Assembly: GCA_964583985.1 (NCBI GenBank)
Contig: CAZOYD010000035.1
Location: 1 to 35,936, forward strand
DNA from: an uncultured archaeon
GTDB taxonomy: Archaea > Asgardarchaeota > Lokiarchaeia > Sigyniarchaeales > SOKP01
Direction of reading: 5' to 3'
DNA length: 35,936 nucleotides
The notes below the pieces were generated by a model that saw nothing but the letters and a program-made list of their open reading frames with translations, was not told the DNA's origin and searched no databases. The position numbers and the translations under genes were made by a program. Shown here piece by piece: positions 23,530 to 26,701 of this stretch (position 1 is the first letter of the stretch; each line of letters opens with the position of its first letter).

Positions 23530-23868
23530 ATGCCTATAGAAACAACATATATAATTAAAAATCGCTCTGATAAAGAGAAGACTATTAAAGATGCCATTTT
23601 TGCATTTTCTGGTGGTACCCGTTCCATATTACTAAGAGGAGAAGGAGATGAAATATCAACAGCTGTAGAAATAGCTGAAATTATAAAAAATAGAATGTAT
23701 CCTTCTTTAGAGATAGCTAATATATCACTGGGAAGCAGGCCATATTTTGATAATAGATCTCGCGGTTATAACCGGAACGATAGAAATAATAGGAATAGTA
23801 GGAGTAGCAAAAACTCTAAAGATTTAATATCTAAAATCGAAATAACATTATCAAAGTCTAATCAATAA
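23530..23868 (+). CDS. Divergent Alba-family nucleic-acid-binding protein
   Basis: ILLRGEGDEISTAVEIAEIIKNR...ISLGS...ISKIEITLSK matches the Alba core. Confidence 0.85.
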   Translation: MPIETTYIIKNRSDKEKTIKDAIFAFSGGTRSILLRGEGDEISTAVEIAEIIKNRMYPSLEIANISLGSRPYFDNRSRGYNRNDRNNRNSRSSKNSKDLISKIEITLSKSNQ

Positions 23869-23869
23869 A

Positions 23870-24052
23870 ATGTCGTTTGAAAAACTAGGACCATTATTAG
23901 GAGAAGCTAGAACAAGCAGTGTATGTATGATATGCAATAATTTTATTTATAAACGAATTTATCGTGATGAGAATTCCTCAGGCAACCAAAAGGTAGTATT
24001 TGTCTGTAAAAACTGTCTAAGAAATAATCACCAAGCAGAACATTCAGAATAA
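23870..24052 (+). CDS. Small zinc-finger protein
   Basis: CMIC...CKNC; 1 bp after the Alba-like stop codon. Confidence 0.7.
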   Translation: MSFEKLGPLLGEARTSSVCMICNNFIYKRIYRDENSSGNQKVVFVCKNCLRNNHQAEHSE

Positions 24053-24906: not shown

Positions 24907-25296
24907 TCACCGTACTTTAGAAAATTTTGTATTTAGCCCATTTTTCGCCTCTAAAAATAAATTTAAATTTTTAGTCACTTTTCCAACCTTACTAACTTTA
25001 TAAGGAAACTCAAAATCTTCCAATAATATTACTAATTCGTCACTTTTTGGGTTATAAAGGATATCTCCCTTTTGTCCTTTTTTTTCAGCTCTTGAATCTA
25101 GACCCTTATAAATTTCCATCCCTGGAATGGACCAATAATTCTTTCGAGTGAAATTAAATCTCCCTCTCAATGCAAAGGGCATTTTTCTCAGAACTGCATC
25201 AGCACATAGCGGATTATAATGTCGATTGATTACACCTTTAATGTCTCCAATACCAAATAGTTCAATTTTAATAGATACATCTCCACTATCAGACAT
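24907..25296 (-). CDS. Cyclophilin-like fold protein (TM1367-like)
   Basis: NPLCADAVLRKMPF, KGDILYNP..ELVI and VSKVGKV. Confidence 0.7.
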   Translation of the reverse strand: MSDSGDVSIKIELFGIGDIKGVINRHYNPLCADAVLRKMPFALRGRFNFTRKNYWSIPGMEIYKGLDSRAEKKGQKGDILYNPKSDELVILLEDFEFPYKVSKVGKVTKNLNLFLEAKNGLNTKFSKVR

Positions 25297-25380
25297 GCTC
25301 TATAATTATATGTATTTAGATTATATATATTATTTCAAAATTTAGCAATTTATCAAGTGTTAAGAGATTCTCTATTAATA

Positions 25381-25394
25381 GCAACATTTAAATA
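25381..25394 (+). promoter_or_regulatory. Archaeal TATA box for the putative ncRNA
   Basis: TTTAAATA at 25387-25394 ends about 23 nt upstream of the helix start at 25417, which is canonical archaeal spacing. Confidence 0.55.
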
Positions 25395-25416
25395 CGTAAT
25401 TTGTTACAATTATATT

Positions 25417-25877
25417 TGGACAATAGTAATGGTCTTTGCATTGGTTAAAGATTCGTTAATTCGGATTATACGATGAATAAGTTATTTTAATTATTTTTAT
25501 TCGTTCTTACACTGTCGTTTTTACCATCGAACAATTTTTTATAATGCACTCAAACAAGATTAATTATTTATATAGCATCATTAGAAGGTGCGAATTTACC
25601 GTAGTATGATCACATCATTTAATCTGTAGAGCGGGATGTAATTATAGAGATTTTACCTTAAAATTTACTACCTTGCTTATATTTATGGAGAATTAAATTA
25701 CTTGAGGCATAGAAACTTGAGTTCGTGTTGATTTGAGTTTTTTTGATACTCGAGACAAATAATCTTTATGCAATTAAGCGGAATTGTAAAAAAGGAGTCT
25801 TTTAATAAACGCTTCTGGAATATAAAGTAGTTCCGTACAATCTGTAGTTCTTTTAAATTCGGGGCTACTATTGTCCA
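25417..25877 (+). ncRNA. Large (~460 nt) structured non-coding RNA of unrecognised family
   Basis: Perfect terminal helix TGGACAATAGTA (25417-25428)/TACTATTGTCCA (25866-25877), many nested helices with G-U pairs on the + strand, upstream TATA box, downstream T10, and no ORF in the track. Confidence 0.7.
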
Positions 25878-26701
25878 CTTTTTTTTTTATTAAGATACTC
25901 TAAATCAAATGCAGTATCAATGTCATAAAAAGAACCTTTAGACGTTATTTCGCATGCGAGAATATCTTGAAGATTTTTTTTACAAATTTCATTCAAAACC
26001 TCGCTAATTTTATTAGAGTCAGAGGATTTTAATATTTGAGAGATTAATAATAGAAATTTGTAATTTAAAAAGAAGATAGGAATCATTTGATTTATGTATG
26101 TGTCTTTTTTAATAGTTGAGAGTTCGATTTCTTCAATTTGAGCCATTACTTCGATATCATCTCTTTTAATAGTTGTTACGTTAGAAATTAAATGAGATTT
26201 TTTTTTTATATCGCTAGCCTTGATTCGTGTATAAAAGATTAATGCTCTTCCTTGAATTTTCTGAATTTGTTTAATTATGATTGAAAGGAGATCATTTAAG
26301 AGAACTTGATCAAATATTGTATCACCGGGAAAAACTAATAAATTATTTTGTTCCTTCCTGATTTCGGGGTTATCAAGGAGTGTTAAGAATGTAAATAGGG
26401 GTCCTTTTTTATATTCAGGATGAGCGTTAATAGTAATTATTCGTTCACTAAGAATGGAATCTTGACATTTTAGATTAGAAATATAGGATTCGATCAGTTT
26501 TCCCCTATATCCTAAGATTACAATGATTTTATCTAATCCTTGGCTTAAAAGATTATCAATAATGATGCCTAATAGAGGTTTGTTACCCATTGATTGTATC
26601 TGAATTAAAGATTTAGGACCTTTTATTTTATTTTTTCGAAACCTCGTGCCCATTCCAGCACATAAAATAACCACTAGAAGATTTTCATTTAATTCTTTCA
26701 T
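25868..26701 (-). CDS. Nucleotidyltransferase (NTP_transferase, sugar/polyol-phosphate type)
   Basis: ILCAGMGTRF...GPKSL, FPGD and YDIDT. Confidence 0.85.
   Translation of the reverse strand: MKELNENLLVVILCAGMGTRFRKNKIKGPKSLIQIQSMGNKPLLGIIIDNLLSQGLDKIIVILGYRGKLIESYISNLKCQDSILSERIITINAHPEYKKGPLFTFLTLLDNPEIRKEQNNLLVFPGDTIFDQVLLNDLLSIIIKQIQKIQGRALIFYTRIKASDIKKKSHLISNVTTIKRDDIEVMAQIEEIELSTIKKDTYINQMIPIFFLNYKFLLLISQILKSSDSNKISEVLNEICKKNLQDILACEITSKGSFYDIDTAFDLEYLNKKKSGQ
25879..25888 (+). terminator. Poly-T terminator of the putative ncRNA
   Basis: Ten consecutive Ts starting 2 nt after the terminal helix; overlaps the last codons (KKK) of the convergent gene. Confidence 0.6.

What the first reader, a model, noticed from the sequence alone, without database searches (positions are those of the whole stretch)
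25381..25888. Unannotated ~460-nt highly structured ncRNA with its own promoter and terminator
Seen: the longest ORF-free gap has TATA (25387-25394), a 12-bp perfect terminal helix (25417-28/25866-77) and T10 (25879-88). Hand folding gives nested helices. Arm A: TGGTCTT 25430-36/AAGATTA 25556-62, TGCATTG 25437-43/TAATGCA 25542-48, ACGATG 25470-75/TGTCGT 25513-18. Long-range helix: AATTATTTATAT 25562-73/ATATAAAGTAGTT 25820-32 and TTAGAAG 25581-87/CTTCTGG 25812-18. Internal arms: TCTGTAGA 25623-30/TTTATGGA 25682-89, GCGGG 25631-35/CTTGC 25672-76, GCATAGA 25707-13/TTTATGC 25765-71, CTTGAG 25716-21/CTCGAG 25749-54. 3' hairpin: GTAGTTC 25844-50/GGGCTAC 25862-68. Non-Watson-Crick positions are consistently G-U on the + strand, which indicates selection on RNA structure and fixes the strand. 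The RNase P CR-I (GAGGAAAGUCC), SRP helix 8 and a tmRNA alanyl acceptor are all absent. Inference: a new or very divergent large Asgard ncRNA.
Basis: partly seen in the sequence, partly recalled or inferred. Interest (0 to 1): 0.9.

Follow-up and report, generated by a model that had tools for sequence, protein, structure and literature searches.

The report
New large structured RNA of Lokiarchaeia
The gap holds a real gene for a roughly 460-base folded RNA that makes no protein, is kept as one copy in the same place in over a hundred related Asgard (Lokiarchaeia) genomes, and matches no RNA family described so far; what it does is unknown.

Summary

Window 25417-25888 (+) is a single-copy RNA gene. 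An archaeal TATA box sits at a fixed 22 nt before an 11-bp helix that joins the 5' and 3' ends. An oligo-T tract follows directly.

I collected about 100 distinct homologues from genomes and metagenomes (345-633 nt). Each has the same promoter spacing, terminal helix and T-run. Where flanks were examined (4 genera), they lie between the same genes. The RNA occurs in 8 of 13 sampled genera of one Lokiarchaeial family, about 110 of 134 genomes. It was not found in sister families or elsewhere in the phylum.

The terminal helix and two 3' hairpins covary: 87-98% paired against 37-50% in slid controls. G-U outnumbers A-C ten to one, which fixes the + strand.

Rfam 15 gives nothing. RNase P and SRP RNAs lie elsewhere in the genome. 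It is not a MITE, and it holds no conserved ORF.

Function is unknown. My best guess is a trans-acting RNP scaffold with clamped ends and U-rich loops. Internal T-runs and the lack of expression data remain open.

The parts
25417..25888 (+). Whole predicted transcript: ncRNA of about 461 nt plus oligo-U tail
   Evidence: Bounded by a TATA box at fixed spacing and by a T-run in about 100 homologues. There is one copy in the own genome.
25387..25394 (+). Archaeal TATA box (TTTAAATA), 22 nt before the first base of the terminal helix
   Evidence: Position and sequence are kept in nearly all homologues. In one subclade of genus g12 the helix start and the TATA box both move 5 nt upstream together.
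25375..25380 (.). Second conserved AT hexamer just upstream of the TATA box; possibly the TATA box of the divergent cyclophilin-like gene (inference)
   Evidence: Conserved in the upstream flanks printed. Its role was not tested.
25417..25427 (+). P1 5' arm; transcription is inferred to start here
   Evidence: Pairs with 25867-25877. It is 98.4% paired in 95 sequences, with compensatory changes at three pairs: UA/AU; CG/UG/UA; UA/GC/AU.
25438..25444 (+). Invariant 7-nt motif GCAUUGG (its core CAUUGG is kept in every clade)
   Evidence: Invariant columns in A1 and A3, and present in all eight genera. Its partner differs between genera. In g14 and g15 it pairs with a segment next to the P1 3' arm (my reading of the sequences). 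In g1 two candidate partners exist.
25716..25757 (+). Hairpin D3: conserved base helix 25723-25730 with 25749-25755, variable stem, and a U-rich apical loop (U7 at 25738-25744)
   Evidence: The helix is 88-91% paired family-wide, with one-sided changes that keep pairing (UG to CG, UG to UA). The window's own copy has two mismatches and an alternative register.
25796..25866 (+). Long 3' hairpin D4: base 25796-25804 with 25858-25866, apex 25817-25819 with 25832-25834. It stacks on P1.
   Evidence: The base helix is 93% paired. The inner helices carry most of the covariation, for example AU 26 / UA 26 / GU 12 and CG 42 / UA 19 / AU 7.
25867..25877 (+). P1 3' arm; overlaps the stop codon and last codons of the minus-strand NTP-transferase ORF
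25879..25888 (+). Oligo-T tract (T10), the inferred archaeal terminator, giving a 3' oligo-U tail
   Evidence: A run rich in T follows the 3' arm in every homologue, within 0-4 nt in nearly all.

Best explanation
Window 25417-25888 (+) is an independently transcribed, single-copy gene for a structured non-coding RNA. It belongs to a previously undescribed RNA family that I found in only one family of Lokiarchaeia.

**Shown**
- A TATA box at a fixed distance from the RNA's first base.
- An 11-bp helix (P1) that pairs the first and last bases of the RNA, followed at once by an oligo-T tract.
- A conserved core: an invariant 7-nt motif near the 5' end, a hairpin with a U-rich loop (D3), and a long 3' hairpin (D4) that stacks on P1.
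- Variable domains in between, which account for the length range of 345-633 nt.
- Covariation in P1, D3, D4 and two further helices (P4, P5).

**Inferred**
- The RNA acts in trans as a stable folded molecule, most likely the scaffold of a ribonucleoprotein.
- P1 and the 3' oligo-U tail protect the ends. The near-invariant sequence of P1 suggests a protein recognises it.
- The conserved single-stranded U-tracts (two hairpin loops and the tail) are candidate binding sites for Sm-like archaeal proteins.

I give about 0.9 that this is a real conserved structured RNA gene. I give about 0.3 that it works specifically as an Sm-like-protein RNP scaffold.
For: **Promoter, ends and copy number**
- The coordinates check out in the window.
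- About 100 distinct homologues share the TATA spacing, both arms and the T-run.
- In one g12 subclade the inner P1 pairs are lost and 4-5 outer pairs are gained. The TATA box shifts 5 nt upstream with them.
- There is one copy in the own genome and one CM hit per genome in 90 of 91 hit genomes.

**Synteny and distribution**
- Gene order is the same in four genera: JAB, Alba, 271-aa ORF, cyclophilin-like, RNA, NTP-transferase, Met-aminopeptidase, AspRS.
- The RNA occurs in 8 of 13 genera of the family.

**Covariation**
- P1 is 98.4% paired, with three covarying pairs.
- The 3' domain is 92.3% paired against 36-51% in slid controls on 63 sequences.
- On 95 CM-aligned sequences it is 87.2% paired against 37-50%. 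Covariation score is 0.150 against 0.025-0.052, and 15 pairs changed on both sides.
- P5 is fully compensated in genus g16. P4 switches between GC and AU.

**Strand**
- G-U 399 cells against A-C 41 cells in the supported helices.

**Not a known family, not coding**
- No Rfam family matches.
- There is no conserved ORF. Open stretches change frame between clades.
Against: - No expression data were available. The transcript, its ends and its stability are inferred.
- Three internal runs of five or more T lie on the + strand in the window (25519-23, 25536-41, 25738-44). A U-tract in the first hairpin loop is over 90% conserved. Archaeal RNA polymerase terminates at U-tracts (PMC8716108, abstract seen), so short isoforms or attenuation are possible.
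- Folding energy is not better than shuffles at a convincing level (z = -1.63).
- GC content is not raised above the surroundings.
- The 5' domain and the partner of the invariant motif could not be settled.
- The window's own clade departs from the family consensus in D3 and the middle of D4.
- The U-tract in the D3 loop is missing in one large clade, which weakens the Sm-site idea.
- Covariation counts are not phylogeny-corrected statistics.
Confidence: 0.8

Rival explanations
1. A cis-acting or antisense regulatory transcript tied to its neighbours. It could be an antisense RNA against the 3' end of the convergent NTP-transferase mRNA, or a by-product of the bidirectional promoter it shares with the cyclophilin-like gene.
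For: The RNA's 3' end overlaps the last codons of the NTP-transferase ORF. In genus g15 it overlaps by 7 nt. Its promoter lies about 90 nt from the start of the divergent gene. Synteny is invariant in four genera.
Against: The overlap with the neighbour is only about 10-20 nt, while more than 300 nt of internal structure is conserved and covaries. In g17 the RNA stays next to the NTP-transferase while the cyclophilin-like gene is 8 kb away. In g13 the RNA is present but no NTP-transferase homologue was found with this query. So neither neighbour is obligatory.
Confidence: 0.07
2. A catalytic RNA (a new ribozyme) rather than a passive scaffold. On this view the invariant unpaired nucleotides of the core form an active site.
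For: Several short blocks are invariant in sequence beyond what pairing needs: the 7-nt motif, the flanks of the D3 base helix, and the P1 sequence. The size and multi-domain layout resemble large ribozymes (my own knowledge).
Against: No Rfam ribozyme family matches. No substrate, cleavage site or processing junction is evident. The 3' domain is replaced in g14 and g15, which would be unusual for a catalytic core.
Confidence: 0.06
3. A very divergent member of a known RNA class: a second RNase P/MRP-like RNA, SRP RNA, tmRNA, a Sm-class or U6-like snRNA, or a known gene hidden by archaeal bulge-helix-bulge introns.
For: The terminal helix joining the 5' and 3' ends is shared with RNase P and SRP RNAs. 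Some clades have a 5' stretch that recalled, from memory only, the U6 segment around its ACAGAGA box. Lokiarchaeia carry many hidden introns (bioRxiv 10.64898/2026.10.13.758758; scan notes).
Against: No Rfam hit at gathering score or at E<=1 for 13 members. No U6, RNase P, MRP or SRP hit even at E<=10 on three members. Genuine RNase P and SRP RNAs lie elsewhere in the genome. ARAGORN finds nothing.
Confidence: 0.03
4. A DNA-level element rather than an RNA: inverted repeats of a replication origin, an invertible switch, or a miniature transposon.
For: Near-invariant 9-11-bp inverted repeats flank an AT-rich 350-620-bp segment.
Against: There is a single copy and no dispersed copies. The internal orientation is the same in all ~100 copies examined. 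Mismatches in the repeats are G-U, never the mirror A-C. Internal helices covary. TATA spacing and the T-run fix a transcription unit. Pfam searches of seven flanking ORFs found no Orc1/Cdc6, transposase or recombinase.
Confidence: 0.02
5. A small protein-coding gene on either strand that gene callers missed.
For: Stop-free stretches of 45-120 codons occur on the minus strand in 72 of 95 copies.
Against: These stretches start at different positions and in different frames in different clades, and most lack a start codon. Indels between clades are not multiples of three. The conserved blocks coincide with paired RNA segments.
Confidence: 0.02

Closest known systems
OLE RNA and other large orphan bacterial ncRNAs (GOLLD, ROOL, raiA); comparison from my own knowledge
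   Same: Several hundred nucleotides long, multi-domain, one copy per genome, and conserved across a taxonomic group. OLE also sits in conserved gene neighbourhoods and was found by comparative genomics before any function was known. OLE works as an RNP.
   Different: There is no sequence or structure match to any of them in Rfam 15. This RNA is archaeal, has an archaeal TATA promoter and oligo-T end, and has a terminal helix of near-invariant sequence. No partner protein is identified.
Archaeal RNase P RNA (RF00373) and SRP RNA (RF01857)
   Same: Single-copy, housekeeping-type structured RNAs with their own promoters, in which a terminal helix pairs the 5' and 3' ends.
   Different: Both are present elsewhere in this genome. 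The RNA here matches neither model even at E<=10. It lacks raised GC content.
Eukaryotic small RNAs with a terminal stem and a U-rich protein-binding site (Y RNA, 7SK, Sm-class snRNAs); comparison from my own knowledge
   Same: The ends are clamped in a conserved stem, there is a 3' oligo-U tail, and single-stranded U-tracts of the kind bound by Sm/LSm or La-type proteins are present.
   Different: It is much longer than Y RNAs and snRNAs, though comparable to 7SK. No Rfam match. The U-tracts lie in hairpin loops, and one of them is absent in a large clade. Protein binding is untested.
The ~120-nt small RNA family of Lokiarchaeia reported earlier in this scan (e1-5630547)
   Same: By that note it has its own promoter, a closing stem, U-rich motifs and an oligo-U end, in the same class of archaea.
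   Different: That RNA is about a quarter of the size and is said to occur in most Lokiarchaeia, including the cultured species. This one was found in a single family only. I could not compare sequences, so any relationship is untested.

Membership tests
Independent structured ncRNA gene (generic criteria) | Own promoter at a fixed distance from the first base of the RNA | tested here: met
   The TATA box lies 22 nt before P1 in about 100 homologues, and it shifts together with the helix start in one subclade.
Independent structured ncRNA gene (generic criteria) | Base pairs kept through compensatory changes, above controls | tested here: met
   P1 is 98.4% paired with 3 covarying pairs. The 3' domain is 87.2% paired against 37-50% slid, with covariation score 0.150 against 0.025-0.052.
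Independent structured ncRNA gene (generic criteria) | Strand asymmetry of wobble pairs | tested here: met
   G-U 399 cells against A-C 41 cells.
Independent structured ncRNA gene (generic criteria) | A stable transcript of the predicted size | not testable with these tools
   No RNA-seq or northern data were available.
Archaeal RNase P RNA (RF00373) / RNase MRP | Covariance-model match, including the conserved P4 core | tested here: not met
   No hit at gathering score or at E<=10. The genome's RNase P RNA is on C11 at 140 bits.
Archaeal SRP RNA (RF01857) | Covariance-model match, including helix 8 | tested here: not met
   No hit in the window. The SRP RNA candidate is on C15 at 67.6 bits, E 8e-15.
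tRNA / tmRNA | Cloverleaf or tRNA-like domain | tested here: not met
   ARAGORN finds 0 genes in the window. A multi-intron tRNA was not excluded by a dedicated tool, but the 9-12-bp terminal helix and the conserved 300-nt interior do not fit one.
C/D-box or H/ACA sRNA | Box motifs with a K-turn, and a model match | tested here: not met
   Only chance-level snoRNA hits, E 0.9-9, on varying strands. Boxes are not conserved in the alignment.
Sm-class / U6 snRNA | Model match; Sm site or ACAGAGA/AGC core | tested here: not met
   No snRNA hit at E<=10. Sm-site-like tracts (A, then U5-9, then GA) occur in the D3 loop of several clades but not all, so that single feature is inconclusive.
MITE / mobile element | Many dispersed copies with target-site duplications | tested here: not met
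   One copy in the own genome, one per genome in relatives, and a fixed syntenic position.
Archaeal replication origin (ORB repeats) | Adjacent orc1/cdc6 gene and repeated origin recognition boxes | tested here: not met
   Six of seven flanking ORFs carry JAB, Alba, cyclophilin-like, NTP-transferase, M24 peptidase or AspRS Pfam domains; the 271-aa ORF has no hit. None is Orc1/Cdc6. Only two repeat arms exist, and they behave as an RNA helix.
Protein-coding gene | An ORF conserved in frame across relatives | tested here: not met
Large bacterial orphan ncRNAs (OLE, GOLLD, ROOL, raiA) | Match to the family covariance model | tested here: not met
   All are in Rfam as far as I know. No hit in the window or in 12 homologue loci.

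The most novel reading that the evidence does not exclude
The RNA is the core of a previously unknown Asgard ribonucleoprotein. Its invariant terminal helix and single-stranded U-tracts would be bound by Sm-like (LSm/SmAP) or other RNA-binding proteins, making it an archaeal counterpart of the stem-plus-U-tract RNPs of eukaryotes. Alternatively, it is a new class of large ribozyme.
Probability: 0.12. Interest if true: 0.9.

Novelty: categorically new. Interest (0 to 1): 0.7.

Why it matters
Few large structured RNAs of unknown function are known in archaea, and to my knowledge none from Asgard archaea, the closest prokaryotic relatives of eukaryotes; three literature searches found none.

This RNA has the hallmarks of an important cellular RNA. 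It is kept as one copy per genome, with its own promoter, in about 110 species-level genomes. Its structure covaries, and its terminal helix is conserved in sequence beyond what pairing needs.

It gives a defined target for RNA-protein pull-downs, structure probing and cryo-EM in a lineage where RNP evolution bears on the origin of eukaryotes.

It also shows that this family's intergenic space hides RNA genes that standard annotation and Rfam miss.

One limit is that it was not found in the sister family f2, which I guess (untested) holds the cultured Asgard strains, so experiments would need enrichments, metatranscriptomes or heterologous work.

Tried and rejected
- **Rfam.** No hit at gathering score on the whole window. 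At E<=10 on the region there are only chance snoRNA or sRNA hits. At E<=1 on 12 homologue loci there is nothing. At E<=10 on two divergent members there is nothing relevant.
- **U6 lead.** A 5' stretch in some clades recalled, from memory, the U6 region around ACAGAGA. No U6 hit appeared at E<=10, so I dropped it.
- **Folding energy.** Minimum free energy against shuffles gives z = -1.63 (+) and -0.89 (-). This is uninformative in either direction.
- **GC elevation.** None.
- **MITE.** Rejected: no second copy.
- **Distant family f31.** Pattern hits there (7 genomes) lack the TATA box, the 3' arm and the T-run, and sit in 46-49% GC sequence. I treat them as chance.
- **Sister family f2.** A 9-nt inverted pair near the cyclophilin-like gene lacks every other feature, and neither syntenic locus has a gap.
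- **CM R1 sensitivity.** The 3'-domain model misses genera g13, g14, g15 and g17 because their 3' domain differs. The RNA was recovered there through synteny and 5' motifs. The zero CM hits in other families are therefore weak evidence of absence.
- **5' domain.** Single-sequence folds and RNAalifold on the 5' domain gave inconsistent answers. Two candidate partners for the invariant motif in g1 could not be told apart, because the motif never varies.
Tested on the family alignment and mostly rejected. MAFFT misalignment in the variable regions makes that test harsh.
- **Literature.** Three searches found no description of this RNA.
Full report
**1. What is in the window**

The region 25297-25867 has no ORF of 40 aa or more. 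It lies between two minus-strand genes:
- a cyclophilin-like protein (24907-25296, PF18050);
- an NTP-transferase (25868-26701, PF12804).

- TTTAAATA at 25387-94;
- a perfect 12-bp helix, 25417-28 with 25866-77;
- T10 at 25879-88.

One correction applies. The NTP-transferase ORF ends inside the 3' arm, so the T-run and that arm overlap its last codons on the other strand.

**2. Known things it is not**

- Rfam 15 finds nothing at gathering score in the whole window. At E<=10 it finds only chance hits at E 0.9 or weaker.
- ARAGORN finds no tRNA or tmRNA.
- The genome's RNase P RNA is on contig C11 (140 bits). An SRP RNA candidate is on C15 (67.6 bits, E 8e-15).
- The element has no second copy among the 3.8 Mb of this genome, so it is not a MITE.
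- GC content is the same as the surroundings.
- Folding energy is only weakly better than shuffles: z = -1.63 on the + strand and -0.89 on the minus strand.

On single-sequence evidence alone, the finding would be undecided.

**3. Homologues**

BLAST against 40 relatives showed three conserved blocks, about 500 nt apart, in all 23 genomes of the same genus: the promoter with the 5' arm, a middle block, and the 3' arm with the T-run.

A 19-nt pattern from the 3' end then recovered further copies from genome and metagenome collections. This gave 64 distinct sequences of 345-518 nt.

Every one has:
- the TATA box exactly 22 nt (rarely 21-23) before the first base of the 5' arm;
- the 3' arm;
- a following T-run.

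I built a covariance model (R1) from the 3' 160-190 nt. It found one full-length hit per genome in 90 of 130 other genomes of the same taxonomic family (f1), in genera g1, g12, g16 and g23. It found none in three sister families.

The model is blind to genera whose 3' domain differs. Through synteny and the 5' motifs I found the RNA also in g13, g14, g15 and g17. These copies are 362-633 nt long and have the same TATA spacing, terminal helix, invariant 7-nt motif and T-run.

The union of the three searches gives about 110 of 134 genomes in 8 of 13 genera. The five genera without a hit contribute only six genomes.

Outside the family:
- Pattern hits in a distant family of the phylum lack every other feature and are chance.
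- The sister family f2, which includes complete genomes, has no gap at either syntenic locus.

**4. Synteny**

In the four genera whose flanks I examined, the order is the same: JAB protease, Alba, a 271-aa ORF, cyclophilin-like, the RNA, NTP-transferase, methionine aminopeptidase, AspRS.

Neither immediate neighbour is obligatory.
- In g17 the RNA stays with the NTP-transferase, while the cyclophilin-like gene is 8 kb away.
- In g13 no NTP-transferase homologue was found with this query.

**5. Structure supported by comparison**

*P1, the terminal helix.* In 95 sequences it is 98.4% paired. Three pairs change on both sides:
- first pair: UA 63, AU 16;
- fifth pair: CG 85, UG 9, UA 1;
- eleventh pair: UA 56, GC 20, AU 4, UG 3.

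In one g12 subclade the two inner pairs are lost and four or five new outer pairs appear. The TATA box moves 5 nt upstream with them. This is what selection for a helix that starts at the transcript's first base would produce.

*D3.* This is a hairpin with a conserved 6-bp base helix, one more G-C pair, a variable upper stem and a usually U-rich loop. Rare changes keep pairing, such as UG to CG and UG to UA.

*D4.* This is a long 3' hairpin that abuts P1. Its 9-bp base is 93% paired, and its inner helices carry most of the covariation.

| Alignment | Paired | Slid controls | Covariation score | Slid controls |
|---|---|---|---|---|
| D3+D4, 63 sequences (MAFFT) | 92.3% | 36-51% | 0.134 | 0.024-0.054 |
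| D3+D4, 95 sequences (aligned to the model) | 87.2% | 37-50% | 0.150 | 0.025-0.052 |

In the second alignment, 15 pairs changed on both sides, against 5-14 in the slid controls. That alignment is fitted to the model and so leans towards it. The MAFFT alignments give the same picture.

*Two further helices have support.*
- P5 closes the variable middle domain and is fully compensated in g16.
- P4 is a hairpin with a conserved U-rich loop, and one of its pairs switches between GC and AU.

*Strand.* Across P1, D3 and D4 there are 399 G-U cells and 41 A-C cells. The paired strand is therefore the + strand.

**6. What stays unsettled in the fold**

The 7-nt motif near the 5' end never varies, so covariation cannot find its partner.
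- In g14 and g15 it can pair with a segment directly 5' of the P1 3' arm, extending the terminal stem. This is my reading of the sequences.
- In g1 two partners are possible, and neither is conserved family-wide.

In most clades a copy of the inner P1 sequence lies just 5' of D4. It could pair with the 3' arm instead of the 5' arm. The window's own clade lacks that copy, so I do not treat it as essential.

Several short motifs recur two or three times in the RNA. I cannot say whether this reflects duplication, protein sites or chance.

**7.

Mapped onto the 95-sequence alignment, the helices are 5-59% paired family-wide. In the six close relatives of the window they are 47-92% paired, which says little.
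- H5, H6 and H8 clash with D4 or with the supported layout.
- H7b is a perfect 6-bp helix in the window, but it is a clade-specific register of D3. The family register has two mismatches in the window.
- H3 uses the invariant motif.

The details are mostly not.

**8. Not coding**

The longest ORF with a start codon has a median of 44 aa. Stop-free stretches on the minus strand start at different places and in different frames in different clades. In the window, the frame through the 3' arm is that of the NTP-transferase C-terminus. In another clade a different frame is open.

**9. How it most likely works**

*Shown.* It is a conserved transcription-unit layout that encodes a folded RNA.

*Inferred.* It is a trans-acting, stable RNA.
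- P1 with the 3' oligo-U tail would shield both ends from exonucleases.
- Nine base pairs of P1 are almost invariant in sequence across eight genera, more than pairing requires. This points to recognition by a protein or a processing enzyme.
- Three single-stranded U-rich tracts (the P4 loop, the D3 loop in most clades, and the tail) are the kind of site bound by Sm-like archaeal proteins (my own knowledge).

I therefore favour an RNP scaffold, at about 0.3 for that specific step.

One real difficulty remains. The internal T-runs should act as termination signals for archaeal RNA polymerase (PMC8716108, abstract seen). Either read-through is efficient here, or shorter isoforms form part of the biology.

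**10. Novelty**

No Rfam family matches. Three literature searches found no description. The scan's earlier notes hold only another reading of this same stretch, plus an unrelated-looking smaller Lokiarchaeial RNA.

I rate it a new RNA family of unknown function, restricted as far as I searched to one family of Lokiarchaeia.

Noticed in passing
window 25868-25888: The NTP-transferase ORF (minus strand) ends inside the RNA's 3' arm. Its last codons read through the A-run that is the RNA's T-run on the other strand. The two genes therefore converge and overlap by about 10-20 nt. In g15 the overlap is 7 nt.
   Followed up: partly
window 25297-25416: This looks like a compact divergent promoter region. 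A second conserved AT hexamer (25375-80) lies 6 nt upstream of the RNA's TATA box and could be the TATA box of the cyclophilin-like gene on the other strand.
   Followed up: no
own genome contig C15:17602-17926 (locus L030): The SRP RNA candidate scores 67.6 bits, below Rfam's gathering score of 96.5, although E = 8e-15 and the full model length is matched. SRP RNA in this lineage seems divergent enough to be missed by standard annotation.
   Followed up: no
window 25519-25523, 25536-25541, 25738-25744: Three internal runs of five or more T lie on the transcribed strand. The family keeps a U-tract in the loop of the first conserved hairpin in over 90% of sequences. These tracts could be termination or attenuation sites, or protein-binding loops.
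   Followed up: partly
alignment A3 (95 homologues): Short motifs recur within the RNA. The invariant 6-nt core of the 5' motif appears again in D4. A 5-nt GGAGC block appears three times. The inner P1 sequence appears again just 5' of D4, where it could compete for the 3' arm.
   Followed up: partly
G014 contigs C57 and C117: One relative carries two near-identical copies on separate contigs. That genome is listed with 9% contamination, so this is probably two strains in one bin rather than a duplication.
   Followed up: no
window 23530-24052: An Alba-family gene is kept next to the locus in the genera examined. Another first-reader note says it is followed by a 60-aa zinc-finger-type ORF. 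Alba proteins bind RNA, but I found no evidence that links them to this RNA.
   Followed up: partly
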